From: a virus
DNA: 64,000 bases
Strand: one strand, 5' to 3'
IMG/VR virus record: IMGVR_UViG_3300009129_001478
Location: 33,632-97,631 of that record
The notes beneath the pieces are model-generated. The model had not been told where the DNA came from and ran no database searches. It worked only from the letters and a program-made list of their open reading frames with translations. The translations under genes were made by a program, and so were the position numbers. Positions 9,647 through 53,153 of this stretch are shown here, one piece after another. The stretch's first letter is position 1. Every line of letters begins with the position of its first letter.

Positions 9647-9650
9647 TAGA

Positions 9651-9693
9651 GTGCGATTCTAGCACACGACCTGAGCATGTCACAAAACTGCTT
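9651..9693 (+). ncRNA. Small hairpin plus H-type pseudoknot in the tRNA spacer
   Basis: GTGC/GCAC hairpin; then stem GAC/GTC with loop GAGCA complementary to downstream TGCTT after an A-rich linker. Confidence 0.4.
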
Positions 9694-9699
9694 ATATTT

Positions 9700-9787
9700 G
9701 GAAGGATGACCGAGAGGCCGATGGTGCAGCATTGGAAATGCTGTGTGGGGTAACCCACCGAGGGTTCGAATCCCTCTCCTTCCTCCA
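9700..9787 (+). tRNA. trnS: tRNA-Ser (GGA)
   Basis: Class II tRNA with long variable arm GTGGG-GTAA-CCCAC, anticodon loop TTGGAAA, encoded CCA. Confidence 0.93.
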
Positions 9788-20333: not shown

Positions 20334-20660
20334 GGGGGTAACAGGTATCGATTGATGGGAAAGTAAAAACGGTGCAAGGGTGAGGGAAGCGGGGCTCACT
20401 AAAAACGCTTATCTAATAATCGCAGCTTAAAAACGATTATACAAAAAACATCAGCAGCTTAAAAACCTGACTATGTTTGAGGCGGTGGCAGCCAATAAAC
20501 AGAAAGCTACGCTATGTTTCTAAGTGCTTTTGATTGTTTTGGCCGGAATAAAACGATCTAGTCAAGTGGTCTGTCCGACGAAAAAAACAGCTCTAACCTT
20601 GTGAATGACCTTTTTATGGAACTAGACAAGACGGGAGTTCGAATCTCCCTACCTCCACCA
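20334..20660 (+). ncRNA. ssrA: tmRNA
   Basis: 5' GGGGGTA pairs with 3' TACCTCC-A-CCA (G3:U70); T-arm GGGAG-TTCGAAT-CTCCC preceded by GAC; pk1 GTGAG/CTCAC with AAGCG/CGCTT; 327 nt. Confidence 0.92.
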
Positions 20661-30603: not shown

Positions 30604-31776
30604 ATGGCAGATTCTGATAACAAACCAGTTGATTTAACACAAACTGCCTGGCGTCCGCCTGACGGTGTTGTCAATTTGATTAAACAAAACAACCGAAAAC
30701 TTATCGCCAAAAAGAGTACTTACAAAGAAAATCAAGTTGTCACGGCCAAATTACTAACGCCAGGAATTCGCGAACCAAGGTGGTATGAGCGCGTTGGGAA
30801 TTTTCTATTTGGGGAAACTTCGGATTCCAATCCAAAACTAATCAAATACAGAGTAAGGGTTGAGGAAGACCCAAGATCTTATGTGTGTCCGGAACCCCTA
30901 AACGCCGATGATAATGCGATTGATTTACCTCAAATTGTCTGCGACATTGATGAAGGCATTCAACAAGACCTACCAGCAGGTGCCAAAGTACAAATAAGAA
31001 TCAATAATCCTAATACTTGTTTTACTGCGGCAACCGGAGCAACAATTATAAAAATCATTGATGCCTCTCCAGATAACTGGAATGAAACCTCTGAAAACTG
31101 CCAATCACCTTTGCCTAATAGTGGATCAGCACAGAAATCCACAGTAAGAAAGACCTGCACGACCACCAGGGGGGGCAAAGCCGGCGGGCCACTAAGATCA
31201 ACATCTATTCCAAAATCAACGTCAGGTAAATACCCAAGATCTCCTACTACGGCGAGGTCCACCCAGGGGTATACTAAAAATGCTAGCAATGCATCTGTAG
31301 GGACTATTTCATCTCAGTTTGGTAAACGACCACCACCAAGAGGTGGCGGATCTGTAAATCATCATGGAGTTGATATTGCTATAAGTAAAGGGAAAAGCGT
31401 TTATGCAGCACTGGATGGCGAGCTAATTGCCGCAGCACAATCAGGAAATCCAGATAAAGAAGGGGCAGGCTATTATGCTGTTATAAAACACACAGCCTAT
31501 AAAGCAAGCACCCCAGGGAGTACTTTTTATACACTTTATATGCACCTTACAAAGGGCACTGTAATTACTTCCGTAAACACGTTCGGCAATGGACAAAAAG
31601 TCTCAGCAGGGCAATTAATTGCTAAATCTGGTGATTCAGGTTATGGCGGAGCCCACCTTCATTTTGGAGTAGTATATGACAATGGCGACTGGTCCACAGG
31701 AGGACAGGTTTCAGCATATGGATATCATGCTGATCCTGAGACAGATTTTTGGCCAAATCAATTTGAGAAGAAGTAA
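30604..31776 (+). CDS. M23 metallo-endopeptidase-domain virion protein
   Basis: SSQFGKR, HHGVDIA, YTLYMHL, GAHLHF. Confidence 0.85.
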   Translation: MADSDNKPVDLTQTAWRPPDGVVNLIKQNNRKLIAKKSTYKENQVVTAKLLTPGIREPRWYERVGNFLFGETSDSNPKLIKYRVRVEEDPRSYVCPEPLNADDNAIDLPQIVCDIDEGIQQDLPAGAKVQIRINNPNTCFTAATGATIIKIIDASPDNWNETSENCQSPLPNSGSAQKSTVRKTCTTTRGGKAGGPLRSTSIPKSTSGKYPRSPTTARSTQGYTKNASNASVGTISSQFGKRPPPRGGGSVNHHGVDIAISKGKSVYAALDGELIAAAQSGNPDKEGAGYYAVIKHTAYKASTPGSTFYTLYMHLTKGTVITSVNTFGNGQKVSAGQLIAKSGDSGYGGAHLHFGVVYDNGDWSTGGQVSAYGYHADPETDFWPNQFEKK

Positions 31777-38182: not shown

Positions 38183-38583
38183 CAAAAAGACAAGGAATAT
38201 CACCGCGCGTCCCTCTAATATATGATAAGACTGATGGACCGTATCGTCTAAATAAAACTCTCAAAGAGGCTATTAAACAGAACTTTAAGAATATTGTTCT
38301 TACATCACCTGGCGAAAGAGTAATGATTCCAAACTTTGGTGTTGGTATTTATAATCTTTTATTTGAAAATGTGGGACCAGCCACATTTGAAGAAATTGCC
38401 TCGCGAGTAGCCGAACAGACCGAGGCGTATGCTCCTGCTGTCAATCTCGTATCTGTCGTTTTTACCACATCGGACGAAGACCCAACAATGGACTTCAACG
38501 AGGTGAGAATTGTAATCACATATAATATACTACCATATGATGAGGAAGATCAGCTAATAATAACATCAACAATGACTAGTTAA
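38179..38583 (+). CDS. Baseplate wedge protein gp25-like (GPW/gp25)
   Basis: IKQNFKNIVLTSPGERVMIPNFGVGI...LFE. Confidence 0.92.
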   Translation: MTKRQGISPRVPLIYDKTDGPYRLNKTLKEAIKQNFKNIVLTSPGERVMIPNFGVGIYNLLFENVGPATFEEIASRVAEQTEAYAPAVNLVSVVFTTSDEDPTMDFNEVRIVITYNILPYDEEDQLIITSTMTS

Positions 38584-38606: not shown

Positions 38607-40400
38607 ATGGCAAAAAGACCGATAAACTACACTAGCAGAGATTTTGAAAGTATCAAGCAAGACTTGGTGAACTATGCTGAAAGGTATTATCCCACAACCT
38701 TTAAGGATTTCAGTGAAGCTTCTTTTGGTGCATTGATGATGGATATGGTAGCCTATGTCGGCGATCAATTGTCTTTTTATGCTGACTTCCAGGCTAATGA
38801 GAGTTTTTTAGATAGTGCCATAACTTATGAGAATGTCAATCGTCTTTCAAACACACTGGGTTATAAAACCCCAGGCGCTGCAAAATCTACAGGACAAGCT
38901 TCTTTTTATGTTATTGTTCCCGCTGATCCCAACTCACGAGGTCCTGATTTAGATTATTTTCCAATTCTGCAAAGAGGGAGTCTAATCTCGTCAAAAAACG
39001 GATCCGCTTTTACGCTAGTGGATAATGTGGATTTTACAAATCCCAACAATGAAGTTACTGTAGCCCGAGTAGATGATTCAACCGGTAATCCTACATTTTT
39101 TGCAGTGAAAGCATATGGGCAAGTTGTGTCCGGACAGATCTACGAACAAATAACGGCTGTTACTGACTACCAAAGATTTTTGAGAATTAATGTCGATCAG
39201 GAAAATATAAGCGAAATACTGTCCGTAAAAGACAGCCAGGGGAATGAGTATTATGAGGTTGACTTTTTAACTCAAGATGTTATTATACAAGAATTTCAAA
39301 ATACAACTTCTGATCGCGAAGTTGTTCCTTATATTATGAAACTCAAGCCTGTTCCGCGCAGGTTCGTGACAGAGTTTGAATCAAATGGAGATACTTATAT
39401 TCAGTTTGGTTATGGTTCACAAGATAATATTACGACAGATGTTGTAGCAGATCCAGCAGATGTTGTTATGAACGTAAATGGTCGCACACATGTGACAGAT
39501 CAAACTTTTGACCCAACAAACCTAATCCAGACTGATAAGTTTGGAGTAGTCCCCACCAATACCACCCTGACCATTGAATACGCAGCCAATACTTCAGATG
39601 AAATAAACATTGCCGTGAATGGCTTGAGTGAAGTAATATCTCCTCGCCTATCTTTCAAGAACCAGGGCACGCTGGACCTCAATTTGGTCAATGGGGTTGT
39701 AACCTCTGTAGAAGTAGAAAATGAAAGCCCAATTCTGGGAGACACAAGCATATTGACGGCTGAAGAAATTAGAGAAAGAGCCTTCGGAACATTTGCATCC
39801 CAAAACCGCGCCGTCACCCGCGTAGATTATATTAACCTTATTTATCGCATGCCTTCAAAGTTTGGTAAAGTCAAGAGAGCTAACGTTGTTCGCGACGTAG
39901 ATTCTTTGAAAAGAAACCTGAATGTATATCTTTTGTCGGAAAATGCTAATGGCGATCTAATTGAGCCAAACGGGAATCTTAAAGAAAATACAAGAGTTTG
40001 GCTAAACAAATATAGAATGATCAATGATACTATTGATGTTCTGAACGGCAAAGTGATCAATATTGGCATCAAATTCAAGGTCCTTCCAGAATTAGACGTC
40101 AACCGCTATGAACTCCTAGATGCTTGCATACAAAAATTGAAAGATGAATATATCAATATCAAGTTCAATATTGGGGAGGCAGTTTATATTTCCCAGATTT
40201 ACAAACTACTAAATGAAGTGCCGGGCGTGGTGGACACGACAGAAGTAGAACTCGTTAATAATGTTGGCGGAGTTTATAGCAATTATAGATTTGATATTGA
40301 TTCTAATCTTTCAGACGATGGAAGATTCTTGGTGTTACCTGAAGATGCCGCTGCTGAGGTGTTGCTGCCAAATACAGATATTATAGGAGCGGTGATCTAA
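38607..40400 (+). CDS. Baseplate wedge protein gp6-like (baseplate J family)
   Basis: YTSRDFESIKQDL, ANESFLDSA, LGY, IQFG, QNRAVT..DY. Confidence 0.9.
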   Translation: MAKRPINYTSRDFESIKQDLVNYAERYYPTTFKDFSEASFGALMMDMVAYVGDQLSFYADFQANESFLDSAITYENVNRLSNTLGYKTPGAAKSTGQASFYVIVPADPNSRGPDLDYFPILQRGSLISSKNGSAFTLVDNVDFTNPNNEVTVARVDDSTGNPTFFAVKAYGQVVSGQIYEQITAVTDYQRFLRINVDQENISEILSVKDSQGNEYYEVDFLTQDVIIQEFQNTTSDREVVPYIMKLKPVPRRFVTEFESNGDTYIQFGYGSQDNITTDVVADPADVVMNVNGRTHVTDQTFDPTNLIQTDKFGVVPTNTTLTIEYAANTSDEINIAVNGLSEVISPRLSFKNQGTLDLNLVNGVVTSVEVENESPILGDTSILTAEEIRERAFGTFASQNRAVTRVDYINLIYRMPSKFGKVKRANVVRDVDSLKRNLNVYLLSENANGDLIEPNGNLKENTRVWLNKYRMINDTIDVLNGKVINIGIKFKVLPELDVNRYELLDACIQKLKDEYINIKFNIGEAVYISQIYKLLNEVPGVVDTTEVELVNNVGGVYSNYRFDIDSNLSDDGRFLVLPEDAAAEVLLPNTDIIGAVI

Positions 40401-40401
40401 A

Positions 40402-42357
40402 ATGGCTATCAAAAAATATTACGCCGATAAAGACAATACAATTACAAATGCATACAAGAGTAATTTGATAACTCGTGGCACCGGGTCCAATATGGGCGCA
40501 GCAGATATTCTTGAGGCTTTTGTCATTCACGGACAAACATCAGCATCTGTCACGACTTCTCCTTCTGCGGCTAATGCTACCAATGCAGAACAGAGCCGAT
40601 TTATTATTCAATTTCCGCTAGCGACTATTGCATCTGATATGTCTAGCGGCATTTTGCCGGCAGATACGGGTAGCATTAAGTTCTATTTGAATCTCTACAA
40701 TGCTCCCCATGGTAATACAGCACCTAGAGATTTTTCACTAGATGTTTATATGCTTTCTCAGGAGTGGACAGAGGGTCGCGGATTAGATATGGAAAATTAT
40801 ACAGACCTCGGCGCGTCAAGTTGGGAATCTGCTTCGTCCGGAACAACATGGACCCAGGCTGGCGGAACATATTTGCCGGCAGTCGGTACCGCTACAGCTA
40901 CTGTTTCCTTTATTACGGATAGTACACCTACTGCACTTGATGACGGCAAAACCATCATCATAACAAACTATGATGGCACGATTGCCACCTTTACTTTGAC
41001 AGCCGCTACCCGCTCCTCTACCGAAATTGATCGGTCTGCTATTGGTAATGTTAACGACTTTGCTACTGAGATTAAAGCCTCTATGGACCTGGCAGTTGCT
41101 GCTGGACTTCTCAAGGCTACCGTATCCCCCGTAGAAAACGATATCAACGGAAATCCAAGAATGATCACTCTTACTGCGGGAGCAGCCGGAACAATCGGCA
41201 ATCAATCTGTGGCGGGAACATTTATTACTGGTGGGGGCGGAGAAGTAATTTGCAATGCTACCTGTAATGATCCTTCGGTTGGCAATGGGTCATTGGCATT
41301 TACCGGCGGAGTTGATGCCGGTTCCACTCAAAAAACGTTTTCCTTTGAGACAGGTCTAGAAAATTTATCACTTGATGTTTCTGATCAGGTTTATAAATGG
41401 CTGGATGCTGTGAGTGGCGACCTGAATTGCGGTTTCCTTATAAAATTTCCAGACTCTATAGTATCGGGGTCTCAAAACTTGTACACTAAAAAGTTCTTCT
41501 CCAGAACCAGCGAGTTTTTTCATTACCGACCAACCTTAGAAGCCCGCTGGGATTCTACAAGGAAAGATAATCGTGGAAACTTCTTTGCCAGCAGCAGCGT
41601 TGCCTCAGCCGCCAACAATTTGAATACTCTTTACCTCTATAATATAGTGAGAGGACAACTTCAGAACCTCCCAGGAGTGGTAAACGAAACGTTGACAGTT
41701 GATATCTATTCTGGGAGCACAAGTCCTGCCGGCACTCCGCTAAGCCTTATAAAGTCTGGTGGTACAGCAGCGACAAGCGTTCCAGCCGGCATTTTGCGTG
41801 AAAACGGAGCAACAATTACCGGTGTTTATACAGCATCGTTTGCATCCACTAGTTCTTTGGACACTGTATTTGATGTTTGGCATACTGGCTCGGGTGCTTC
41901 TAGGGTAAATTTCTATACTGCTTCATATGGTCCTAAAACCTTTGGAACCATTGATGGACTTTATCGCGAAGAATATTTAACCTCTATAACAAATTTAGAA
42001 GATTCTTATACACAAGGACAGACCCCAAACCTTCGCGTATTTGCTAGAAAGAAAAATTGGAACCCCAACATTTATACAGTCGCGACAGCGGAAACACTCC
42101 CAGAAATTATAGAAGATTCTTATTACCGCGTTCATAGAGTTGTTGATGGCTTAGAGGTCATCCCTTTTGGTACGGGAAGTACTAACAACTACTTCAGTCG
42201 TCTCTCATACGACGTGAGCGGTAATTATTTTGAATTAGATACTTCCTGTTTAGAGCCTGGTTATGCATATGGAATTACATTTGCATACTATTTACAGGGT
42301 GAGTATGCTGAACAACCCGAGGTGTTCAAGTTCAAAATTAAAGAAGAAGATAAATGA
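40402..42357 (+). CDS. Virion/baseplate-associated protein carrying one inserted 142-aa module
   Basis: KDNTI, SRFIIQF, WTEGRG, GFLIK, KKFFSR...PTLEARWD (DNRLRE-like framework); repeat module at 40891-41316. Confidence 0.7.
   Translation: MAIKKYYADKDNTITNAYKSNLITRGTGSNMGAADILEAFVIHGQTSASVTTSPSAANATNAEQSRFIIQFPLATIASDMSSGILPADTGSIKFYLNLYNAPHGNTAPRDFSLDVYMLSQEWTEGRGLDMENYTDLGASSWESASSGTTWTQAGGTYLPAVGTATATVSFITDSTPTALDDGKTIIITNYDGTIATFTLTAATRSSTEIDRSAIGNVNDFATEIKASMDLAVAAGLLKATVSPVENDINGNPRMITLTAGAAGTIGNQSVAGTFITGGGGEVICNATCNDPSVGNGSLAFTGGVDAGSTQKTFSFETGLENLSLDVSDQVYKWLDAVSGDLNCGFLIKFPDSIVSGSQNLYTKKFFSRTSEFFHYRPTLEARWDSTRKDNRGNFFASSSVASAANNLNTLYLYNIVRGQLQNLPGVVNETLTVDIYSGSTSPAGTPLSLIKSGGTAATSVPAGILRENGATITGVYTASFASTSSLDTVFDVWHTGSGASRVNFYTASYGPKTFGTIDGLYREEYLTSITNLEDSYTQGQTPNLRVFARKKNWNPNIYTVATAETLPEIIEDSYYRVHRVVDGLEVIPFGTGSTNNYFSRLSYDVSGNYFELDTSCLEPGYAYGITFAYYLQGEYAEQPEVFKFKIKEEDK
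40891..41316 (+). repeat. Dispersed in-frame coding repeat, copy 1 (142 codons)
   Basis: ATATVSFITD...DDGKTIIITN...NGNPRMITLT...LAFTGGVD; DNA blocks shared with copies 2-4. Confidence 0.92.
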
Positions 42358-45300
42358 GTGTAAAAAAGCTATTTGACAATAACAAACAAATCGTTACTGT
42401 TGGAAAATTCCTAAAGCTTAGTGCGCCCGATGCCCTGGGTGATGGAATAGAATCCGACGCTCACTTATCTGCATCCATTCAGAAGCAGGATTATTTTCTC
42501 CCCCCAGTTGATTATTCAAAACCAGAAAATTTTGTAAAGTTTGGTTCTGCCGAACAATATTATTCTAATGCCTTCAATTATATTGCCAACTATTATCCTT
42601 ATGATGGATCAATTTTGGAAAGGGTTAGTTTTTATAATAAAATCAATCCTTTAGAAAAATACATTCTTGAGGATTTATATCCAACTTCTACGGGCTATGT
42701 CACCATCGGTGCGGACTATGGCACCGTGACAACAAATGCAACAGGGTATGACTCCTCGTCGGCAGAATATATTCAGATCAAGGGCGGCCCACACTCCGGA
42801 TCCATTTATAAGGAATCTAAAAATAGAACATCTAATCTTGAATTTGGTGGATCCAGCGGAAGCTCTGTTGAATTCTTTCTAAAAAAGAACTCAGCCAGTG
42901 ACGGGATTTCAAGTTCAGAGAAGCAAGTAATATTTGACCTTTGGAATGGTGCCTCTGATACTAGCGCCACAGCCACTGCCATTATCATTACAGACGGCAC
43001 GCCAATTGCTCCCGATGATGGCAAAACCATTATCATAACAAATTATGATGGCACCACCGCTACTTTTACTTTGACAGCCGGCACTCGTTCTTCTACAGAA
43101 ATTGATCGGTCTGCTATTGGCAATGCCAACGATTTCGCCACTGAGATTAAAGCTTCTATGGATTTAGCAGTTGCTGCCGGACTCATCAAGGGCACTGTAT
43201 CTGCTGTAGAAAACGACGCCAACGGCAATCCAAGAATGATCACGATCACTGCTGGATTAGCCGGCACTATCGGGAATAAAGCTGTTTCAGGAACATTTAT
43301 AACTGGTGGCGGCGGAGAATTAGTTTGTAACCCTGCTGGCAACGATCCTGCGAGCGGAAATGGAACACTAGCATTTACCGGCGGCGTTGACGGCGGCTAT
43401 GGTAGAATGAGAATTGAGTTAAGGTCTCCCACCGAAGATCGCTTCTATGTTACCATGTTATCCGGCGCGACGGGCTTTAGCAGTATTCCTGTTCCCACAA
43501 CAGGTAACATAGACATTACTGATGGGGTTTTCCGGAATTTTGCGTTTGTCTTCAACACCTCCGGCTCTATACCGACTTTAGATTTCTTCGTCAACGGTGC
43601 ATGTATCCAAACGGGCATAACTTCTTCAGCCATCAGCGCAATTGGTTTAGTGACCGGCTCAATGATCGGCAACATTGGCGCACTGCGGACAGACATTGAG
43701 GGATCCCCAGGCGCAGCAGAAGGGTATGGTAAACTTTCAGCGTCTATTGATGAATTCCGATTTTGGAAAACAAGCAGGAACGATGAGCAGATTGGCCGAT
43801 ATTGGTTTGATAATGTCGGCGGCGGCACGGATAAATACGATGCCAATGTGGGACTTGGCGTATATCTTAAGTTTAATGAAGGTATAACTCAAACAGCCAG
43901 TGTTGATAAAATTTGTTTAGATTATTCTGGGCGATTGTCAAATGGTACATTCACGGGCTATAGTAACACCTATAGTAGGAATACTGCTTCTGCAATTGAC
44001 TCCCTTAGTTTAGAGTCAGTCAAAGAAGTTGGCGACCCAATCATTAGAACATCCAATCCGCTCTATATTACAACCAAGGCGGACTATGTTTTGACCGGCA
44101 GCAATTATGATTATAATAATAATTCTCGCTTGCTAAATCATCTTCCTAACTGGATAATTGAAGAAGAAGAAAACGGCGAGAATGAAATTGTAAGTGTCAC
44201 GCAAATTTTATCCAGTTATTTTGACACCCTTTATAATCAACTAACTGCTCTCAAAGAATTACGACATCTAAAATATATTAGTGGCAGCGCCACGGGATCT
44301 ATTAATGAGTATCCCTATAATGATCGTTTGGTTGAATCTATGGGACTAGAAATGCCCGAATTCTTCCAAAATGCCGGCACCTTGCAGCAATTCTTAAAGA
44401 GAGATGAACAAATCAATTTTGAGCAGCGACTTGTAGGGGTCAAAAACTCAATTTATAAAAACATCTACAATAACCTTAGTTTTATTCTAAAGTCTAAGGG
44501 AACTGAAAAATCAATCAGAAACTTCATTCGCTGTTTGGGTGTCAGTGAGGAGGTTATAGCCCTCAACACTTATCCGGATAATTCTGACTATGAAATTAAA
44601 AGTAATTATTATTCTACAACAAGCACCAAACGATTTGCAGATTTTACAGGATTTCTAAATCAAGATGATGTAAAGGCAACGGTTTATCAATATCCGGACT
44701 CTTCCAATATAAATTCAAAAGGCTTCGTAACGGGTTCAGTAAATCTAGAAGAGTTTGCTTTTTCTCTCCAAAGTGAAATAGTTTTCCCAAATAAAGATAA
44801 CCCAGAACTCTTGCCTTACGTTATGCCCAGGGTAGTGACATCTTCTTTGATGGGTTTCCATACTCCATTTGATTCAGATCAGACGTCAACCGATATGACG
44901 TGGCAAACAGCCGGTAATGACTATGGACTTCAGGTTTACGCTATTCGTAGCCCAGGAGAATATCCTAAAGTCTATTCTCCCAATTATCGCGTAAGAGACG
45001 CATATTTTGTAGTTAAGGACCGCGCAGGCACTACACTCCTCACGAGTTCTATTTTTAATGATGTATATGATAATCAAAAGTGGAACTTTACTTTATCATT
45101 GCGTCCGAAAAAATATCCATTCGCTGACGGTATAAACGGAGCATCAGTCTCTACGGACGGATACACGCTAGAATTGTATGGTGTAAATTATGACACTGGT
45201 ATAAAAAGAAACAGCTTTTTAGCCAGTGCTGACATGACTTACAACGCCGCGGCACCTATTGTAGAATCTAATAAGAGAGTCTATGTCGGCGCTCACCGAA

Positions 45301-47195
45301 CAAACTATACAGGCAGTCTTTTAACAAGATCTGATGTCCGCGCATCTAGTGTTAGATATTGGACAGATCATTTCCCCACTGGAACCTTGGATCTCCAAGC
45401 CAAGGAGACGGATACACACGGACGCCTAAGACCTTACAGAAATGCGTATTCTTTCCAATCACAAAATCCAAATGTTTATATCCCCCGCATTCAGACTCTT
45501 GCTCTTAATTGGGATTTTGCCGACATTACTGGAAGCGATACGTCAGGACAGTTTACGGTACAAGACATATCTTCAGGATCGGTAGCTGCCGATTATCCAA
45601 GCCAATACCAAAAGGCAATGTTCAGTAACATCAATTTGCGGCAGCATTCTGGACGAGGTGACTTCTTCGCTGCCAGTGCAACACCAGTTCGCAAGGAATA
45701 TGTTTATACTGAAAAACTACAAGTCCCTGAATATGTTGGCGGCGAAGAAATGGTTCAGGCTCTCAATTCCGATGAGCAGACTTTTGGAATTTATACAAGA
45801 CCTGAGACTTTCTACTTTGCCGTAGAACGAAGCATGTATCGCAGTATCTCCAACAGGATGCTTGAATTATTCGCCAGCATTGAGGATTTCAACAATCTCA
45901 TCGGCGAGCCTGTAAATAAATACCGCTTAAACTATAAGCGCATGGAAAAGGTCCGAGAGATATTCTTCCGGAAGGTAAGAAACGATATTCCAGACCTAGA
46001 GAAATATATTGATTATTATAAGTGGCTAGACACTTCAATGAGTCAGGTGATTGAAGAGTTTTTCCCTGAATCTGCTCGCCACGCATCTGATGTTCGTAAA
46101 ATTGTTGAGAACCACGTTCTTGAGCGTCCAAAAATCCAGCATAAGATTTCAATACTAAGAGACCGACACCCCGGCGGCACCCCCGGTCCATCTGGTTCTA
46201 TTAGGGGATCTGTCTGCCTGGATTATCCTGGCTGGGGCAAAAACCATAGACCAATCTCCGGACTCCAAACTCAGAACTGTTTTTGGTGGCAGACAAGAGC
46301 CGAACGAGATGAGCCACCTCTTGTAGTGACTGCCGGCAACCTGCCATCACGCAATGCTGTTCTCAACGCCGCTCAAAAAGATGCAAACTCTCATTCTCTG
46401 ATTTGTTTATCAGCTAACATCATTCCTCCGTATTACGGCGGCATCAATCAGTATCTTAATAAGAAGCGCCGCTTCCGTGATTTAACCTTTGATAGGTTTG
46501 AGCCACTTGAAGATTGCACAGATGAAGATGTTCCGAACGAAAAGAAGAAGATTGCCTTCAGGGCAACCAAAGACGGCACGCTCTACAAAGGCAGCCAGAT
46601 CACACCGTTCACCGCAGTAAGTTCTAGCATCCTTTCAGGTTATAATGCAGAACTTAACAGTTCAGGCTTGACAGGTATCTCTCTTACTAACCTCCACGAA
46701 GACAGTATCCTTCCATATCGTCACAGTGTTCCTATGCAGGGACCGTTCCCTCAACGCTGGGTCGGTGGTATCCAAGCACGTCACAACGCACCATTTAGAA
46801 CAGTAGATCGCGCTGAAGAATACAGTTTAGAGATTACCACCGGCACTGGCTCCATAACAACCTTAACCATAGAAAACCAACCTAAAGGTCAATACCTAAG
46901 AGGGCTGGCTTCCAAATCACCTGTCAACATATCCAATATCAAAACCGTCATTTCTGAACACACCACTCCCGATGGTGTCCGAGTTGTCGGAAACTATTCA
47001 AAATATTATGAAGTCGTACAGGGCAATGATCGCTCAGAAACCAATATGGACTTTGTGTTCAACAACGATCATTACGCCTACAGTATGCCATCAGCATTTC
47101 TAACCCCTCCCGCGCGCAGAACACTAGGATTAACAGGTTCAGCAGATTACCCAGCACCTCGCCAGCGTCAAGCTGTCGCAGCTACTGCAATCTAG
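42354..47195 (+). CDS. Giant baseplate/tail-associated protein, N-terminal part (LamG-like domains; ends at an in-frame TAG)
   Basis: NFVKFGSA, LSASIDEFRFW, KSKGTEKSIR. The frame continues past TAG 47193-47195 into the next ORF, giving 3599 codons in total. Confidence 0.75.
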   Translation: MSVKKLFDNNKQIVTVGKFLKLSAPDALGDGIESDAHLSASIQKQDYFLPPVDYSKPENFVKFGSAEQYYSNAFNYIANYYPYDGSILERVSFYNKINPLEKYILEDLYPTSTGYVTIGADYGTVTTNATGYDSSSAEYIQIKGGPHSGSIYKESKNRTSNLEFGGSSGSSVEFFLKKNSASDGISSSEKQVIFDLWNGASDTSATATAIIITDGTPIAPDDGKTIIITNYDGTTATFTLTAGTRSSTEIDRSAIGNANDFATEIKASMDLAVAAGLIKGTVSAVENDANGNPRMITITAGLAGTIGNKAVSGTFITGGGGELVCNPAGNDPASGNGTLAFTGGVDGGYGRMRIELRSPTEDRFYVTMLSGATGFSSIPVPTTGNIDITDGVFRNFAFVFNTSGSIPTLDFFVNGACIQTGITSSAISAIGLVTGSMIGNIGALRTDIEGSPGAAEGYGKLSASIDEFRFWKTSRNDEQIGRYWFDNVGGGTDKYDANVGLGVYLKFNEGITQTASVDKICLDYSGRLSNGTFTGYSNTYSRNTASAIDSLSLESVKEVGDPIIRTSNPLYITTKADYVLTGSNYDYNNNSRLLNHLPNWIIEEEENGENEIVSVTQILSSYFDTLYNQLTALKELRHLKYISGSATGSINEYPYNDRLVESMGLEMPEFFQNAGTLQQFLKRDEQINFEQRLVGVKNSIYKNIYNNLSFILKSKGTEKSIRNFIRCLGVSEEVIALNTYPDNSDYEIKSNYYSTTSTKRFADFTGFLNQDDVKATVYQYPDSSNINSKGFVTGSVNLEEFAFSLQSEIVFPNKDNPELLPYVMPRVVTSSLMGFHTPFDSDQTSTDMTWQTAGNDYGLQVYAIRSPGEYPKVYSPNYRVRDAYFVVKDRAGTTLLTSSIFNDVYDNQKWNFTLSLRPKKYPFADGINGASVSTDGYTLELYGVNYDTGIKRNSFLASADMTYNAAAPIVESNKRVYVGAHRTNYTGSLLTRSDVRASSVRYWTDHFPTGTLDLQAKETDTHGRLRPYRNAYSFQSQNPNVYIPRIQTLALNWDFADITGSDTSGQFTVQDISSGSVAADYPSQYQKAMFSNINLRQHSGRGDFFAASATPVRKEYVYTEKLQVPEYVGGEEMVQALNSDEQTFGIYTRPETFYFAVERSMYRSISNRMLELFASIEDFNNLIGEPVNKYRLNYKRMEKVREIFFRKVRNDIPDLEKYIDYYKWLDTSMSQVIEEFFPESARHASDVRKIVENHVLERPKIQHKISILRDRHPGGTPGPSGSIRGSVCLDYPGWGKNHRPISGLQTQNCFWWQTRAERDEPPLVVTAGNLPSRNAVLNAAQKDANSHSLICLSANIIPPYYGGINQYLNKKRRFRDLTFDRFEPLEDCTDEDVPNEKKKIAFRATKDGTLYKGSQITPFTAVSSSILSGYNAELNSSGLTGISLTNLHEDSILPYRHSVPMQGPFPQRWVGGIQARHNAPFRTVDRAEEYSLEITTGTGSITTLTIENQPKGQYLRGLASKSPVNISNIKTVISEHTTPDGVRVVGNYSKYYEVVQGNDRSETNMDFVFNNDHYAYSMPSAFLTPPARRTLGLTGSADYPAPRQRQAVAATAI
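42966..43391 (+). repeat. Dispersed in-frame coding repeat, copy 2
   Basis: ATATAIIITDGTP...LAFTGGVD, 426 nt, no indels relative to copy 1. Confidence 0.92.
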
Positions 47196-47600
47196 ATTAC
47201 AGATGGTACACCGATTGGAGCCGATGACGGTAAGACAATCGTCGTTACAAATGATGATTTAACTGTAGCTACTTTCACTTTGACGGCAGCCACACGCTCT
47301 TCTACACAAATTGATCGGTCTGCTATTGGTAATGCTAATGATTTCGCTACTGAGATTAAAGCTTCTATGGACCTGGCAGTAGCCGCTGGACTTCTCAAGT
47401 GTACAGTATCTGATGTTGAGAATGATGCCAACGGCAATCCAAGAATGATTACGTTGACTTCTGCGATTACTGGACAAAAAGGTAATCAACCTGTGGCAGG
47501 AACGTTTATTACTGGCGGCGGCGGAGAGTTAATTTGCAATCCAGCCGGCAACGACCCTGCTGCCGGCAATGGAACTTTGGCATTCACAGGCGGTGATGAC
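47175..47600 (+). repeat. Dispersed in-frame coding repeat, copy 3 (contains the TAG at codon 7)
   Basis: VAATAI*ITDGTPIGADDGKT...LAFTGGDD, 426 nt. Confidence 0.92.
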
Positions 47601-50600
47601 GCAGTTCGCACGAACCAGACAATCTTTACTGACCGATTTGCTGCACCTGGCTCCAAGCAAGATTCTAAACAACAATTTAGGGATGTGAACTCTGATCAGT
47701 TCTCTCCCAACAATGCGCTGCCCTTCAGAAACATGGCAGTACGTCAACCTTATCACAAGGATTTGACTGAACATTCACTGTTTGGCGGTGTTGTTGGTGT
47801 TGCTACTGGTAGTGCTGTTCTTATTACAGATTCCGCGCCAATTGCTGCCGATGACGGCAAAACAATCGTCCTCACCAATTTTGACGATACAACCGTAACC
47901 CTTACGATGACTGCTGCCACAACCTCTGCTACACAGATCTCGCGCGCAGCGTCAGGTAATGCTGATCTCTTTGCTATTGCCATCAAGGCTTCTCTAGACT
48001 TGGCCTTCGCCGATGGGACTTTGAAATCTAGAGTTTCGGCAGTTGAGAACGATGCCAACGGCAATCCAAGAATGATCACCCTGACTTCAAAAGTCGCGGG
48101 AACAAGAGGAAATAAATCAGTATATGGAACATTAATAACCGGTGGTGGCGGCGAAGTAATTTGCAACCCTGCCGGCAATGATCCAGGGCTAGGCAACGGT
48201 ACACTAACCTTCTTGGGCGGAACAGACAAACCTTCAGTACACAAAACCCCAATGAACCGGGTCAACCAACTTCTGATTGACACAACCTTCCCAACGACAA
48301 CTGTCATCACGGGAAGTACATTTGATAATGGTTATGTGACTAGAGCTTTGCCGGCTGCTGACAGATCTCAGTGGACTTCTTATATTTCCGGCTCAGACAA
48401 CGCTTCGGTTTATGGTCAATATGTTGCTTTGCGTTCTCGCTACCCTGCAAACATCTCTTTTGTAACTCAAAGTCTCAACTCTGTTTCAAGCTGGGATTCT
48501 GCCCTTGTCTTTGATTTAGCATATACAAAAAAATTCAAGTGGTCTAAGAATCGTGATTTTGTACCATGGAAGCAAATAAGCAATGGTACAAGCCCATATG
48601 CTAAATTCTATACACAGAAGAACACCTACAATATTCTCCCGCAAGAAATAGAGACCGTGCAGGATGGAACCGGATTATCAATGATTTCCTATGCTGATGG
48701 TTCTCGTGGGACTTTGCCAACTACTGCGCGACAAGTTACAGATAGGAAGGGAAATACTTCTAATTATTATTATTCTGTTTCCCTCAGAGAAGCGCCAATC
48801 ACCTCTAGGTACAAGCCTTTAATCCACCAAATCAAGACCCCACTGGGAACACCGGCAAAAACGTTGGGCGAGAAAATAACTGTAAGTATGAAATACAGTT
48901 ATGGTAACGAGTTGATGGGTTTTGCAAACAGAGAACTCAATCGCCAATTAGATGGTGGATTGAAGTTTTCTTACGGGAAAATAAAAAGACCTTATGAAAT
49001 ACTAAGAGATCAGTTTGTACCACCAACTCCTCGCGTTGTCAATGGTGCAGATCTTATTAAGGTGTTCTCATATCCTGAAACAATTTATCCTAAAGAGATT
49101 TATACATATTTCTCTGGCTCCAGAGCCCGGCTGTCATTTATCAATGATTTCTGGAGGAGTGATATAGCGGTTGCGAGCTATAATGTGGGTGCTTTCACTT
49201 CCTATGTTAACCTTCGGAGCGAAGAAAACAAGCTAGCTTACAATAGGCAGCTTTCCCGCGTTCAAGGAAATTTTGTAACATCCCAGGGTTACGCAGTCCA
49301 AGCTTCAGAACAAACACCATATAATTCATTGGACGCTTCCCATCCTATTGGGACTGGTAATGGCTCTGGGTCCATGTGGCCACTTGATTCATATCTATAT
49401 TCTGATTCTACAGGATCTTTGGTCACGATTTTGACAGCTTCTGCTCCTGTAGTTTTTGCCGATGCGGCAACAATGCCTTGCGGCGAACTAATGATGACCC
49501 ACTATGGAACGATTAATGATAAGGTGACCAATGTTTCTTTCCGCGACGGGACAGCTTCTTATGTTGCTGCAAACATTAATTCAGCACAATATGTGTATAA
49601 TATCCCTGTAACTACTTTCACCGCATACGCAACTCCAGCCGTGCCGGCAAATGCATCAATTACAGCCGTTGAGACCGTGCCAAGTATTTTGGATGGAAAA
49701 ACAATTATAATTACAACAACCACTACTGCTGTGACATTTACATTTGACCAGACAAAATTACCAAGTTCCGCCTTATTGAGGGTTAATGCAACATCTTATT
49801 TCATAGGGTGTAGCGGCGTTAGTACCACAAACGATGTTATAAATGCTATCTATACTTCTGTTTCTTTATGTAAATCAAATGCAGAGATTGATGTAACACC
49901 AGTAAACCCAGGTGCTGTTGGTGCTGTGATGCAGATTGTGGCAGATGTACCCGGCGTGGCAATGAATGGGCAGGCTATTACAGGTACAGGAATTTCCGGC
50001 GGACAATGTACTCAGATCGCTTTTTCTGGCGGCGCTGCTGGCGGAGTTGCGTTCTCGGGAGAACTACCAGAGCCTCGCGCGCCTGGTGCCGCTTATACTC
50101 GCCCGGCTTGGACTGCTGGTCGCGACCGTCGTTATGTTGACGGACCAAGAAGAGGACAAATTGCACAATCCGTATATCCATTTTATGGGTCATACGAGGA
50201 ATATGTATCAGATATTAGATTGGTTGGTAAAGACCATACAATCTTGCCAGAGTTCCGAATCAGCGAGCATGTTGAACAATACAAGAACGAAGGAGCCCTC
50301 TTTGCAGTCATATCAGCAAGTCTTGAAATAACAGGGTCTAATACCAGTAATTTTGACGGAACCAATCCAAGCTTCTATGAAAGGTTTGCCCAAACTGATG
50401 ATATTGAATTCTTGGAAGATTTTATGCCCACTGACGAAGGTGATCGTAATTTCATATTCAATAATTATCCTCGCCACTTTGAGTTGGAGTCAGAAGCCAT
50501 CGTCAAATTATTGCCCTATAGCGGCTTTTACCCGGTAGACAGAACTCTAGATATTGCCTCTTTATTTAGAACGACATATTCCCCAAATGCTGTGTTTACA

Positions 50601-53153
50601 GGCACTTCAGGCGGAACTACTCCAGCCTGGCGGTCAATTCTTAGACCTTTCTTTGCGCCAGGGATCATGTATAACTCAATCAAATCCGGACTTGCAGTGG
50701 ATTATCCCATCAGGAGGTCTGGAAGAAACGCTGATCAATATTTCCCCCTTGGTGCCGCGACCTTTGACAGTCTTAGGGGTTGTTTAAGCGGAGCTTTAGA
50801 TAGTTCCACTACTGAGGCTGGTACTATTCCCGGCAACTCTAGACGAAATAAGACAGATTTAGAGTGGGCAACCTCAACAGAGGTAGATAAATTCTTCTGG
50901 GCAGACAGGCTGCCATTTGAAACAATTCTTGATCCTGCTGCCGCACTGGAAGATGGGTTTGAAAAGCCTACCGTTCTGTCGGACATTAACCAACTTTTAT
51001 ACCTAGACGTTAGTGGCTCTATTACAACCAAGGGGCTGGATGATACTCTTTATAAAAAGGCAGTCTCCAATTTCTTAGCAAATGTACCCAAATTCTTCCT
51101 GAGCAAAAAAGAAAACAAGTTTGGCTCAGATGGGTACTTGACTAAATTTGTGGCACAGTTTGGAAAACCAGCATCAGCCGAGGGTGAAGTTTCCACCCCG
51201 GTCAGGACAGTGGGTGTCCAAAAAGATGTCGCCTATATGATGGAAATTGGACTGATGAAGACAGATGAATTCAATTTTTATAGCAACCCATATGCTTTTG
51301 GTGTCCCTACTGCTACTGGTTCTGCGGGGTGGGATACTCTGACTGCCAATCAAGTACCAAAGCCCCTGTCGTGGCCACGCCATCGCGGCGAATTTGCTCC
51401 ATTTACACCACCTCATTATTATGGCCCTTCTTTGGTTCGTATCACGTTTATGCCAGAAGGCGACAGAGAGGAATATACACTAGATGAAATTATTAACAAT
51501 GATCGGGGAGAGGTTTTTGTTCAATTCTTGAATGCGAGTGGTAGTTTTTATGATTTCACATCTGGGTCATTTGTTGACCGAGACGGCGCTGCAACCTCCA
51601 CTACGGCTACTCCTGACTATGGCTGGAACCGTGCATGGCAAAACCGAATGGACTTGGATGCCTCTATAAGTATTAACAATGAGTTTCCCACCGATCATGG
51701 AGGATTGTATAAATCTACTGACCCCAATAAGTGGGTCATCATGCCTAAGTGGGAATGCCCAACCTTAGACTTCCCAGACCGGTCAGGACCAGCAGACCAA
51801 TATGCACTTTCATCGTCAGTGTCCACAGGATTATATACTTCTTCGGCGCAGGGGATGTGGCACCAATATGGTGTGATGCCCCAGACTAACCAGGGATCAT
51901 ATTTGTATATTAAAGACATTCCCACTGGAGAACTAGAAGAATATGATTTAGTGGCAATTGCCAGCACAGTGGGCGTGAATACAGAGAGAACATATAAATA
52001 TGTGAAGAAGGTACCTGATTTTGTTTTAGAAACAAATAGATCAGTGCAGTCTTTAGCAGACTTATGTGGCTTTGATCCTGAAGAAATCATCAGATCCGGA
52101 TTTGATATGTCTAAGGCTAAACGCCTAGGAGAACTTGCAGTTGATGACGAAAAGAGTATTTCTGAAGCGATCCTAGCACTGCCTTTCTATATTGATCCAA
52201 AATTAAATAAACCCAGACTAATAACTCTCCAGGCACCTGCTGACAAACTCGGGCCTAAAATTAAGCAGTTTAGGAAGCAATTTACCAAGTTCTCGTTGCC
52301 TCCTGTTTTGGCAAGAAAGCTTTTAGGTATGATCCCACAGGGATATCCCACTATTCCTGATTTTATTAATCCTTTTGGTGGAGATGATTATGATTCCATC
52401 TTGGATGGAGAGGAAATGGCAGAAACCCCTGTGGTTTATCTAATGGAACACAAAGTTTCTTTAACAAGGCAGGATTTATCCGATATTTGGCAAGGGATTA
52501 TGCCGGAACTTTCAACTAATTTCAAACAGAGTGTTTCGGCTATAGACCATTATATGCCCGGCGACAATGTAGAAGAAGATCCCACTCGCTTCCCAGAAGT
52601 AATGAGGGAGCAGCTAAATTTAGATATGCCTCGCGACGGTCATCCAAGATATGATTTATTGGATATTGCAAAACACCCAGATCGTCTAGGGTTCTTTCCC
52701 GATATTAAATGGCTTGTTTTCAAAGTCAAGGAGCGAGGCATTCCCTCTTATACACAAATGGTTGTAGAAGAAGTTGAGGGAGATAAGGCATTTACCTATG
52801 ATAGTGTCCGGCAAATGTTCATAAATGAGGGGATGGACCAGAGAACCGCTTCGCGACTCCTCGCCGATAGGGACAACTTTTCTAAGAGTATTTATATACT
52901 CAAACATCATCTATCTGACCCAACCTATAATTGGCCATATGATTACTGCTCAGTACTTGAATTGGGTAAAATAAACACCAAGATAGGCTTCCGTCCGGAA
53001 CTTAAGACAGAGATGGAGGAATATGAAAACGAAGGAAGGTTTAGGACCAGAGAATTAGAGAGAGCAGTTGAAGAAACAAGAACGGGCTCCGGAGTGATTC
53101 CCTCGCCAGGGTTAGACCTGCGCCAAGGACTGTCACAAAACCGCCCAGAGTGA
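47280..53153 (+). CDS. Giant baseplate/tail-associated protein, C-terminal part (in frame with 42354-47195)
   Basis: 1957-aa ORF whose TTG 'start' lies inside repeat copy 3 with no RBS; frame open from 47196. Confidence 0.7.
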   Translation: MTAATRSSTQIDRSAIGNANDFATEIKASMDLAVAAGLLKCTVSDVENDANGNPRMITLTSAITGQKGNQPVAGTFITGGGGELICNPAGNDPAAGNGTLAFTGGDDAVRTNQTIFTDRFAAPGSKQDSKQQFRDVNSDQFSPNNALPFRNMAVRQPYHKDLTEHSLFGGVVGVATGSAVLITDSAPIAADDGKTIVLTNFDDTTVTLTMTAATTSATQISRAASGNADLFAIAIKASLDLAFADGTLKSRVSAVENDANGNPRMITLTSKVAGTRGNKSVYGTLITGGGGEVICNPAGNDPGLGNGTLTFLGGTDKPSVHKTPMNRVNQLLIDTTFPTTTVITGSTFDNGYVTRALPAADRSQWTSYISGSDNASVYGQYVALRSRYPANISFVTQSLNSVSSWDSALVFDLAYTKKFKWSKNRDFVPWKQISNGTSPYAKFYTQKNTYNILPQEIETVQDGTGLSMISYADGSRGTLPTTARQVTDRKGNTSNYYYSVSLREAPITSRYKPLIHQIKTPLGTPAKTLGEKITVSMKYSYGNELMGFANRELNRQLDGGLKFSYGKIKRPYEILRDQFVPPTPRVVNGADLIKVFSYPETIYPKEIYTYFSGSRARLSFINDFWRSDIAVASYNVGAFTSYVNLRSEENKLAYNRQLSRVQGNFVTSQGYAVQASEQTPYNSLDASHPIGTGNGSGSMWPLDSYLYSDSTGSLVTILTASAPVVFADAATMPCGELMMTHYGTINDKVTNVSFRDGTASYVAANINSAQYVYNIPVTTFTAYATPAVPANASITAVETVPSILDGKTIIITTTTTAVTFTFDQTKLPSSALLRVNATSYFIGCSGVSTTNDVINAIYTSVSLCKSNAEIDVTPVNPGAVGAVMQIVADVPGVAMNGQAITGTGISGGQCTQIAFSGGAAGGVAFSGELPEPRAPGAAYTRPAWTAGRDRRYVDGPRRGQIAQSVYPFYGSYEEYVSDIRLVGKDHTILPEFRISEHVEQYKNEGALFAVISASLEITGSNTSNFDGTNPSFYERFAQTDDIEFLEDFMPTDEGDRNFIFNNYPRHFELESEAIVKLLPYSGFYPVDRTLDIASLFRTTYSPNAVFTGTSGGTTPAWRSILRPFFAPGIMYNSIKSGLAVDYPIRRSGRNADQYFPLGAATFDSLRGCLSGALDSSTTEAGTIPGNSRRNKTDLEWATSTEVDKFFWADRLPFETILDPAAALEDGFEKPTVLSDINQLLYLDVSGSITTKGLDDTLYKKAVSNFLANVPKFFLSKKENKFGSDGYLTKFVAQFGKPASAEGEVSTPVRTVGVQKDVAYMMEIGLMKTDEFNFYSNPYAFGVPTATGSAGWDTLTANQVPKPLSWPRHRGEFAPFTPPHYYGPSLVRITFMPEGDREEYTLDEIINNDRGEVFVQFLNASGSFYDFTSGSFVDRDGAATSTTATPDYGWNRAWQNRMDLDASISINNEFPTDHGGLYKSTDPNKWVIMPKWECPTLDFPDRSGPADQYALSSSVSTGLYTSSAQGMWHQYGVMPQTNQGSYLYIKDIPTGELEEYDLVAIASTVGVNTERTYKYVKKVPDFVLETNRSVQSLADLCGFDPEEIIRSGFDMSKAKRLGELAVDDEKSISEAILALPFYIDPKLNKPRLITLQAPADKLGPKIKQFRKQFTKFSLPPVLARKLLGMIPQGYPTIPDFINPFGGDDYDSILDGEEMAETPVVYLMEHKVSLTRQDLSDIWQGIMPELSTNFKQSVSAIDHYMPGDNVEEDPTRFPEVMREQLNLDMPRDGHPRYDLLDIAKHPDRLGFFPDIKWLVFKVKERGIPSYTQMVVEEVEGDKAFTYDSVRQMFINEGMDQRTASRLLADRDNFSKSIYILKHHLSDPTYNWPYDYCSVLELGKINTKIGFRPELKTEMEEYENEGRFRTRELERAVEETRTGSGVIPSPGLDLRQGLSQNRPE
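47802..48227 (+). repeat. Dispersed in-frame coding repeat, copy 4
   Basis: ATGSAVLITDSAP...LTFLGGTD, 426 nt; more diverged than copies 1-3. Confidence 0.9.
49647..50033 (+). repeat. Divergent fifth member of the inserted module family
   Basis: ANASIT...LDGKTIIIT...VTFTF...PGVAMNGQAITG...IAFSGG; protein-level similarity only. Confidence 0.6.

What the first reader, a model, noticed from the sequence alone, without database searches (positions are those of the whole stretch)
40891..50033. A 142-aa 'mobile' protein module inserted in frame at five unrelated sites in baseplate-region proteins
Seen: four copies of exactly 426 nt with no indels, at 40891, 42966, 47175 and 47802, in two different genes. 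They share DNA blocks (aattgatcggtctgctattgg in copies 1-3; aatccaagaatgat in all four). A diverged fifth copy is at 49647. The flanks of each copy are unrelated to one another, so this is not a tandem gene duplication. The flanks also read as continuous host protein once the module is removed (e.g. VIFDLWNGASDTS|GGYGRMRIEL inside a LamG-like domain; HSLFGGVVGV|KPSVHK). Each module starts with an ATAT-like beta-strand and ends in F(T/L/S)GG, the signature of insertion domains in contractile sheath proteins whose N- and C-termini pair. There are no intein residues, terminal inverted repeats, target duplications or adjacent mobiliser. Inference: this is a self-contained plug-in domain that has recently spread by copy-paste or gene conversion into surface loops of virion proteins. 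It could be a selfish coding element or a modular virion-decoration/adhesion system.
Basis: partly seen in the sequence, partly recalled or inferred. Interest (0 to 1): 0.85.

Follow-up and report, generated by a model that had tools for sequence, protein, structure and literature searches.

The report
Repeated plug-in domain in phage baseplate
An uncultured marine phage carries four in-frame copies of one 142-residue accessory domain inserted into loops of two baseplate proteins; this is an unusually clear but not fundamentally new example of how virion proteins gain surface domains, and it is not a jumping selfish element.

Summary
Four indel-free 426-nt copies (64-82% aa identity) lie at 40891, 42966, 47175 and 47802. 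Relatives at 87-89% aa identity lack them cleanly: a 505-aa gene and one 3185-aa ORF replace the window's 651-aa gene and 3599-codon frame.

The copies are not recent. dS among them is about 1 or more, and dN/dS is 0.02-0.17. Copies 2, 3 and 4 have orthologues at the same sites in other metagenomic phages. Host sequence next to the modules has a different ancestry from the rest of the gene. This points to homologous exchange of filled and empty alleles, not repeated transposition.

The "fifth copy" is a real but ancient homologue (hhalign 95.8%) and is present in all relatives examined.

The module is a compact alpha/beta domain (pLDDT 86.6) with no Pfam or PHROG match. Its fold resembles the outer domains of tail sheaths, FliD and flagellin. 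Related modules sit at other sites in these same two proteins, in tail sheaths and in other proteins of uncultured phages.

There are no intein residues, terminal repeats, duplications or mobiliser.

A TTG-to-TAG change inside copy 3 splits the giant gene. It also appears in a second, near-identical assembly.

Verdict: lineage-specific expansion of a new accessory-domain family, a known kind of event. Its function (adhesion or bracing) is inferred.

The parts
38179..38583 (+). gp25-like baseplate wedge subunit (134 aa), context
   Evidence: PHROG phrog_261 and phrog_43, 'baseplate wedge subunit', E = 9e-21
38607..40400 (+). gp6-like baseplate wedge subunit (597 aa), context
   Evidence: PHROG phrog_10646 and phrog_219, E = 6e-17 and 1e-14. 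About 32% identical to proteins of Microcystis phage Mel-JY01 and Flavobacterium phage immuto.
40402..42357 (+). Host gene 1: 651-aa baseplate-cluster protein (P0001) built of beta-sandwich domains. Homologues are 495-505 aa.
   Evidence: 2781 homologues were found, and the 120 best are about 446-513 aa and lack the module. Alignment. Full-length model.
40891..41316 (+). Module copy 1 (c1), found only in this phage and a near-identical assembly
   Evidence: Clean 146-aa gap in P0002 and in all listed homologues. L083 and L002, which carry other copies, have 503-504-aa genes without c1.
42354..47195 (+). Host gene 2, N-terminal ORF (1613 aa) of a 3599-codon frame. Relatives have one ORF of 3185 aa or more.
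42966..43391 (+). Module copy 2 (c2), inserted inside a sub-threshold LamG-like domain
   Evidence: 142-aa gap in L018. Orthologues at the same site in L083 and in fragment P0126. Laminin_G_3 spans L018 aa 184-338 at E = 2.9e-4, below Pfam's cut-off.
47175..47600 (+). Module copy 3 (c3)
   Evidence: 143-aa gap in L018. Orthologues in L002, L006, L007, L081, L082 and P0148.
47193..47195 (+). In-frame TAG at module position 7 of c3. It replaces a Leu codon and splits host gene 2.
   Evidence: The c3 orthologues have TTG (L081, L006, L007) or TTA (L002) here. The same split (1613 + 1957 aa) occurs in a second ENA assembly that differs by 2 aa.
47196..53153 (+). Host gene 2, C-terminal part (1985 codons after the TAG). 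The first canonical start is TTG at 47280.
47802..48227 (+). Module copy 4 (c4). Its first strand appears to derive from host sequence.
   Evidence: About 139-aa gap in L018. Orthologues in L002, L007, L081, L082, P0148 and P0142. Alignment of empty and filled alleles.
49674..50027 (+). Resident, anciently diverged member of the same domain superfamily (the 'fifth copy'). It lies in a hypervariable stretch.
   Evidence: hhalign probability 95.8%, E = 7.8e-9. Present in L018 and all relatives examined, with extra tandem copies in L012, L059 and L042. Identity between relatives falls to 27-45% in this region.

Best explanation
The 142-aa unit is a compact alpha/beta accessory domain from a previously unannotated sequence family. 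Within one clade of uncultured marine myophages it was duplicated and inserted in frame into permissive loops of two baseplate proteins.

Shown:
- The insertions are clean relative to module-free homologues.
- The copies are translated and under purifying selection.
- They are old. Copies c2, c3 and c4 have orthologues at the same sites in other phages, while c1 is unique to this phage.
- The differences from the closest relative reflect mosaic homologous recombination. Host sequence beside the modules has a different nearest relative from the rest of the gene, and flanking residues co-vary with the filled or empty state.

Inferred:
- Each new site arose by a rare illegitimate-recombination or template-switch event, without dedicated machinery. 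Selection kept it because the domain is exposed on the virion, where it could add weak adhesion to host-surface polymers or brace the baseplate periphery. This is the role proposed for the additional domains of tail sheaths and the Ig-like domains of phage structural proteins.
- The TAG in c3 is a single T-to-A nonsense change. It is probably tolerated because the giant protein can work as two chains (relatives have natural two-gene versions), or it is read through at low level.
For: Clean in-frame gaps in homologues of 87-89% aa identity. The 120 best homologues of host protein 1 all lack the module.

dN/dS is 0.10-0.16 among paralogues and 0.02-0.17 between orthologous copies, with dS of about 0.3-2.6.

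In the module tree, all copies from this clade are monophyletic (95/89) and cluster by site among close relatives. L007 c3 groups with the c4 copies, which suggests conversion between copies.

In the host tree, module-free L018/L001 and L003/L004 are nested among module bearers.

Flanking residues co-vary with the filled or empty state. Sliding identity shows WIN closest to L018 over most of the gene, closest to L002 over L018 aa 1101-1500 (next to c3), and closest to L081 just after c2 (91% against 74%).

L042 carries a different, diverged module about 15 residues upstream of the c3 site. More distant relatives carry many other 120-160-aa inserts at more than 20 other positions. This points to permissive loops, not a fixed target sequence.

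The module model has pLDDT 86.6. Best fold matches are the cyanophage A-1(L) sheath outer domain (Z 8.6), H. pylori FliD (Z 8.5), the Mu, phiTE and XM1 sheaths, T4 gp11 and flagellin outer domains. BFVD hits fall in major tail, baseplate J-like and capsid proteins.

The module family occurs in tail sheath proteins (Pfam-confirmed), at other sites in homologues of both host proteins, and in unrelated proteins.

Literature: sheath additional domains are thought to be acquired for stability or adsorption (PMC9230969).

Some relatives split the giant gene into two genes with proper ATG starts.
Against: Function is entirely inferred. There is no binding motif, no experimental homologue and no virion data.

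Fold matches at Z of about 8 are in the range the tool itself calls middling.

The mechanism of the original insertions cannot be read from the junctions; I saw no microhomology.

Module-free lineages nested among module bearers could also reflect precise losses.

Synonymous sites are near saturation, so relative dating is rough.

I could not measure whether the N and C termini are adjacent in the model. The full-length model of host protein 1 is poor across the module (pLDDT below 50).
Confidence: 0.7

Rival explanations
1. The module is an autonomous, in-frame mobile coding element (a 'domain transposon' or homing-like cassette). It actively copies itself into virion genes and persists because it does not disrupt them.
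For: The same module sits at four non-homologous sites in one genome. Presence/absence boundaries are precise. Module-free lineages are nested among module bearers. Related modules occur at 12 or more sites in at least five protein families. A 20-26-nt block (the NGNPRM codons) is identical between copies despite dS of 1 or more.
Against: No nuclease, recombinase or other mobiliser lies nearby. There are no terminal inverted repeats, no target duplications or shared target motif, no intein residues and no Rfam intron. The antisense frame is not conserved as open. Copies are old (dS about 1-2) and under strong protein-level selection. Copies are orthologous by site. Host flanks travel with the module. 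An independent insertion in L042 hit the same loop but at a different position.
Confidence: 0.07
2. The modules are ancient fixed parts of these proteins that were precisely deleted in L018/L001, in L003/L004 and in other lineages. On this view the window shows the ancestral state, not insertions.
For: Module-free L018/L001 and L003/L004 are nested inside a clade whose other members carry c3, with or without c4. Copies c2, c3 and c4 are old and under purifying selection.
Against: All outgroups (L012, L059, L014, L022, L039) and thousands of homologues of host protein 1 lack the modules. Empty alleles in both subclades resemble the outgroup sequence at the junction and resemble each other (SRRINE type), while filled alleles share different flanks. 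That fits allele exchange better than independent exact deletions. Copy c1 is unique to this phage.
Confidence: 0.12
3. The repeats or the TAG are assembly or sequencing artefacts of a metagenomic contig.
For: Related contigs break or frameshift at the modules. L083 ends inside c2. The 172-kb contig has a garbled frame inside c3.
Against: The copies differ by 22-34% in DNA with codon-level (synonymous) divergence. Orthologues occur in independent samples and collections. The TAG-split ORF pair recurs in a second assembly from another source that differs at 2 residues.
Confidence: 0.03

Closest known systems
Additional (outer) domains of myophage tail sheath proteins (type 2/3 sheaths; e.g. cyanophage A-1(L), Mu, phiTE)
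   Same: A small domain inserted into a loop of an essential structural protein, facing away from the functional core, dispensable, and variable between relatives. It gives the best fold match (8kee_A residues 92-184, Z 8.6, rmsd 2.3 over 92 residues). The same sequence family is found inside three Pfam-confirmed sheath proteins. The literature proposes stability or adsorption roles (PMC9230969).
   Different: Here the hosts are baseplate proteins, not the sheath. Four paralogous copies occur in one genome. There is no detectable sequence similarity to solved sheath domains. Most described sheath additional domains are Ig-like beta-sandwiches, whereas this one is alpha/beta.
Ig-like domains on phage structural proteins (Fraser, Yu, Maxwell & Davidson 2006, J Mol Biol; cited from my own knowledge and via PMC9230969)
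   Same: Promiscuous accessory domains spread among unrelated virion proteins (tail, baseplate, capsid) of many phages. They are thought to give weak adhesion to cell-surface carbohydrates.
   Different: Different fold (no Pfam Ig, FN3 or Big_2 match). Ig-like domains are typically terminal additions, sometimes made by frameshifting, whereas these are internal loop insertions. This family is so far confined to uncultured marine phages.
Flagellin and FliD D2/D3 outer domains
   Same: Variable outer domains inserted between conserved N- and C-terminal assembly regions of a polymerising protein. Fold similarity: 6iwy_A Z 8.5, 4nx9_A Z 6.8.
   Different: No sequence similarity. Different biological system. 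Homology is not established.
In-frame selfish insertions: inteins and Rickettsia palindromic elements
   Same: Insertions that keep the host reading frame and occur in many unrelated genes.
   Different: There are no splicing residues (copies start with A or V and end in D) and no homing endonuclease, so this is not an intein. There is no palindromic or terminal-repeat structure, and the unit is under strong selection as a folded domain, so it is not an RPE-like element.

Membership tests
Intein | N-terminal Cys/Ser nucleophile, C-terminal His-Asn, and a Cys/Ser/Thr as first residue of the downstream extein | tested here: not met
   Copies begin with A or V (ATAT, VAAT, ATGS) and end in GG(V/D/T)D, followed by A, G, A or K.
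Transposon / MITE / RPE-like DNA element | Terminal inverted repeats or a palindromic structure, and target-site duplications | tested here: not met
   No terminal inverted repeats within 90 nt of any copy. No duplications or shared motif at the junctions compared with empty sites in L018.
Self-splicing intron (group I/II) | Match to a catalytic RNA model, and no need to keep codon-level constraint | tested here: not met
   Rfam at gathering threshold finds only tRNAs and a tmRNA in the window. dN/dS of 0.1 shows the unit is translated.
Ig-like / FN3 / Big_2 phage accessory domains | Pfam match or an all-beta sandwich fold | tested here: not met
   No Pfam or PHROG family for the module or for module-bearing regions. 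The model has a 17-residue helix packed on a sheet.
Tail-sheath additional-domain / FliD D2-D3 / flagellin outer-domain fold | Structural superposition covering most of the domain with a score clearly above background | tested here: inconclusive
   Z 8.6, 8.5 and 8.0 over 92-115 residues, with 23 chains at Z of 5 or more, nearly all sheath, FliD, flagellin or phage tail proteins. Foldseek against PDB found nothing at E of 0.001 or better. BFVD gave 11 hits at E of 0.001 or better. The scores are in the tool's 'middling' range.
Tail-sheath additional-domain / FliD D2-D3 / flagellin outer-domain fold | Inserted in a loop with adjacent N and C termini | not testable with these tools
Loop insertion is inferred from the clean gaps in homologues.
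LamG / concanavalin-A-like domain (host context of c2) | Pfam Laminin_G_3 match at or above the gathering score, spanning the insertion site | tested here: inconclusive
   L018 aa 184-338 scores 21.5 bits against a cut-off of 27.6 (E = 2.9e-4), and the c2 site (after aa 206) lies inside the match. In the window the match restarts after the module.
Stop-codon reassignment (TAG read as sense) | TAG rare or absent as a terminator, in-frame TAGs in many genes, and a suppressor tRNA | tested here: not met
   TAG ends 16 of 87 long plus-strand ORFs. The six tRNAs in the contig include no suppressor. Only one in-frame TAG was seen. The contig is only part of the genome.

The most novel reading that the evidence does not exclude
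The module is a new class of selfish element: a protein-coding cassette without its own enzyme. It would spread in frame between loops of virion genes by hijacking phage recombination-dependent replication, then move between phages with its flanks. The nucleotide-conserved NGNPRM block would act as a recombination signal. The broken giant gene (a TAG here and a frameshift inside c3 in the 172-kb relative) would be a cost of its activity.
Probability: 0.07. Interest if true: 0.85.

Novelty: new member of a known kind. Interest (0 to 1): 0.42.

Why it matters
Phage tail and baseplate proteins are known to pick up accessory surface domains, but the steps are rarely visible. This clade preserves filled and empty alleles at four sites, paralogues of graded age, and mosaic flanks. 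It is therefore a natural experiment on how a domain is inserted into the interior of an essential protein and then shared by recombination.

It also defines an unannotated domain family. Only 20 of 1.84 billion representative proteins match it, none of 50,697 cultured-phage records do, and it has no Pfam or PHROG model. The family decorates sheath, baseplate and other proteins of abundant uncultured marine myophages.

The insertion sites also mark loops of a giant baseplate protein that tolerate a 15-kDa insert, which is useful for display or engineering.

Tried and rejected
I recovered synteny through the search for related loci instead.
- Megablast of the region and tblastn of the module against 50,697 phage records found nothing.
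- Pfam and PHROGs gave nothing for the module or for either host protein beyond a sub-threshold LamG match.
- The PDB sequence search with the host-protein-1 profile gave no hit.
- ESM Atlas gave only unnamed clusters.
- The full-length model of host protein 1 was poor across the module. Its Foldseek hits were generic Ig/MG-like beta-sandwich chains, so the T4 counterpart of this protein remains unknown.
- Antisense overprinted gene: the frame has 0-2 stops in each copy and is not conserved as open, so I rejected it.
- Suppressor tRNA or TAG recoding: rejected on present data.
- Microhomology at the junctions: none seen, though about 20% DNA divergence would hide it.
- Literature searches found no description of this domain or of repeated loop insertions in baseplate proteins.
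- The scan's own index holds no look-alike sequence.
Full report
OBSERVATION

The region holds a baseplate gene cluster. It contains a gp25-like gene (38179-38583) and a gp6-like gene (38607-40400) (PHROG matches). These are followed by a 651-aa gene (40402-42357) and a 3599-codon frame (42354-53153) that carries a single in-frame TAG at 47193-47195.

The repeat finder recovers four gap-free copies with start-to-start spacings of 2075, 4209 and 627 nt. The 426-nt units at 40891, 42966, 47175 and 47802 align without indels. They are 64-82% identical as protein. The most distant pair gives BLASTP E = 4e-54. A profile built from the four copies finds no further copy in the 97.6-kb contig that holds the window.

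The "fifth copy" (about 49674-50027) is not significant pairwise (E = 2.0). When its family alignment is compared with the module family alignment, hhalign gives 95.8% probability and E = 7.8e-9 over 106 columns. It is therefore a real but anciently diverged relative.

ARE THEY INSERTIONS?

Yes. A search with the 651-aa protein found 2781 homologues. The 120 best are about 446-513 aa long, and the closest (P0002, 88-89% identical) lacks exactly the module.

P0002 lies on a 178.6-kb IMG/VR contig (L018). In that contig the next gene is a single 3185-aa ORF. Aligned to the window's frame, it is 87% identical and shows clean gaps of 142, 143 and about 139 residues at c2, c3 and c4. It shows no gap at the fifth copy. 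The fifth copy is thus a resident domain shared by all relatives, and in L012, L059 and L042 it has extra tandem neighbours.

The c2 site lies inside a LamG-like match that is below Pfam's cut-off (L018 aa 184-338, 21.5 bits against a 27.6 cut-off).

HOW OLD ARE THE COPIES, AND HOW DID THEY GET THERE?

The copies are not young. Nei-Gojobori dS is about 1.0-1.1 among c1-c3 and 1.7-2.1 to c4, with dN/dS of 0.10-0.16.

Other metagenomic phages carry orthologous copies at the same sites:
- c3 and c4 in L002, L007, L081, L082 and P0148.
- c3 alone in L006.
- c2 in L083 and in the more divergent fragment P0126.

Orthologous pairs have dN/dS of 0.02-0.17, with dS mostly above 1. Only c1 is unique. 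L083 and L002 have 503-504-aa genes without it, and no other protein in the 5.8-billion-sequence collection carries it.

In a maximum-likelihood tree all copies from this clade form one group (95/89). Within that group, copies cluster by site among close relatives. c1 joins the c2/c3 group, and L007's c3 groups with the c4 copies, which hints at conversion between copies.

A tree of the host protein places the module-free L018/L001 and L003/L004 inside the module-bearing clade, while all outgroups are empty.

Two observations explain this without repeated transposition or exact deletion. First, residues flanking the c3 and c4 sites co-vary with the filled or empty state across subclades. Second, sliding-window identity shows a mosaic:
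- The window is closest to L018 over most of the gene.
- It is closest to L002 over L018 aa 1101-1500, next to c3.
- It is closest to L081 just after c2 (91% against 74%).

Modules therefore travel with their flanks by homologous recombination among co-circulating phages. The de novo insertions were few and older.

L042 carries a different, diverged module about 15 residues upstream of the c3 site. More distant relatives carry 120-160-aa inserts at more than 20 other positions in both proteins, and several of these are weakly similar to the module. These facts argue for permissive loops, not a target sequence.

WHAT IS THE MODULE?

It has no Pfam or PHROG match. AlphaFold2, run on a 15-sequence alignment, gives a confident compact alpha/beta domain (mean pLDDT 86.6, pTM 0.82).

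An exhaustive structural search puts the outer domain of the cyanophage A-1(L) tail sheath first (Z 8.6). H. pylori FliD follows (Z 8.5), then the Mu, phiTE and XM1 sheaths, T4 gp11, T7-like nozzle proteins and flagellin outer domains. Among predicted viral structures it matches parts of major tail, baseplate J-like and capsid proteins. These scores are moderate, so I claim fold resemblance, not homology.

A profile search of 1.84 billion representative proteins finds only 20 matches. They include:
- three Pfam-confirmed tail sheath proteins;
- homologues of both host proteins with the module at other positions;
- several unrelated proteins.

None of 50,697 cultured-phage records has the module. 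The nearest cultured phages (Microcystis phage Mel-JY01 and Flavobacterium phage immuto) are only about 32% identical in the gp6-like protein.

MECHANISM AND FUNCTION

Shown: the module is a translated, selected, self-folding domain inserted in loops. It is dispensable in close relatives, and it is exchanged by recombination.

Inferred: it is exposed on the baseplate and either adds weak adhesion or braces neighbouring subunits. These are the roles proposed for sheath additional domains and Ig-like phage domains (PMC9230969; Fraser et al. 2006, from my own knowledge). The hypervariability around the resident fifth copy (identity between relatives falls to 27-45%) is what one expects of a host-facing region.

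The original insertions probably arose by rare illegitimate recombination. The junctions give no direct evidence for this.

Selfish-element signatures are absent:
- no intein residues;
- no terminal repeats;
- no duplications;
- no Rfam element;
- no conserved antisense ORF;
- no nearby mobiliser.

THE TAG

All c3 orthologues have Leu (TTG or TTA) where the window has TAG, so this is a single T-to-A change. TAG is an ordinary terminator in this genome (16 of 87 long plus-strand ORFs). The six tRNAs on the contig include no suppressor.

The same 1613 + 1957-aa split occurs in a second assembly from another source that differs by two residues. A consensus error is therefore unlikely.

Some relatives encode the giant protein as two genes with proper ATG starts, at other positions. 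A 172-kb relative has a disrupted frame inside its own c3. A break at this surface module may therefore be tolerated. Whether the downstream part is re-initiated or the stop is read through cannot be decided here.

My comparison with orthologues supports its TTG-to-TAG reading.

VERDICT

The reading as a recently spreading or selfish mobile module is not supported. This is a lineage-specific expansion of a new accessory-domain family. It is a clear new example of a known kind of virion-protein evolution, and it carries an interesting secondary feature: the amber-split giant gene.

Noticed in passing
window 47193-47195: The amber codon inside c3 splits a gene that is one ORF of 3185 aa or more in relatives. 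It is a TTG-to-TAG change and recurs in a second, near-identical ENA assembly (P0141/P0147). No canonical start follows until the TTG at 47280.
   Followed up: partly
L010:15195-15259, L011:15188-15227, L043:12540-12544, L036:16563-16579: In more distant relatives the giant baseplate gene is naturally split into two genes with a stop followed by an ATG, at several different positions. L068 has a lone in-frame TAA (12823-12825) with no start after it.
   Followed up: partly
P0149 / P0142 (172,498-bp JGI contig): In this relative the giant gene is broken by a frame disruption inside its own c3 module, near the G-rich ITGGGGE codons. The 90%-identical P0148 (3458 aa) on another contig is intact. 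This could be an assembly error at a repeat or a second real break at c3.
   Followed up: no
window about 49600-50100 (L018 aa 2001-2100): A hypervariable stretch surrounds the resident fifth module. Identity between relatives drops to 27-45%. L012 and L059 have about 140 extra residues here, and L042 about 110, that look like further tandem members of the superfamily.
   Followed up: partly
window 41143-41168, 43218-43243, 47427-47452, 48054-48079 (module codons about 85-92): The codons for NGNPRM (AACGGCAATCCAAGAATGAT) are identical at the nucleotide level in all four copies and nearly so in ten orthologues, despite dS of 1 or more elsewhere. This could be codon preference, a conversion tract or a DNA/RNA signal.
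   Followed up: no
P0136 (646 aa): A module-family member sits in a protein with thrombospondin type-3-like DxDxDGxxDxxD repeats and a C-terminal hydrophobic segment. It looks cellular rather than viral, and its source is unknown.
   Followed up: no
L083 (contig Ga0098054_1000715) end: The contig ends inside the c2 module. The repeated modules probably break short-read assemblies, so module-bearing phages may be under-represented or fragmented in metagenome collections.
   Followed up: no
window 20334-20660 and 7074-9784: A phage-encoded tmRNA (Rfam RF00023, 67.5 bits) and six tRNAs (Lys, Met, Arg, Thr, Ala, Ser). There is no suppressor among them.
   Followed up: no
window 30604-31776: A 390-aa protein with a C-terminal metallo-endopeptidase/endolysin-like domain (PHROG E about 1e-14) lies just upstream of the baseplate genes. 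It may be a tail-associated lysin.
   Followed up: no
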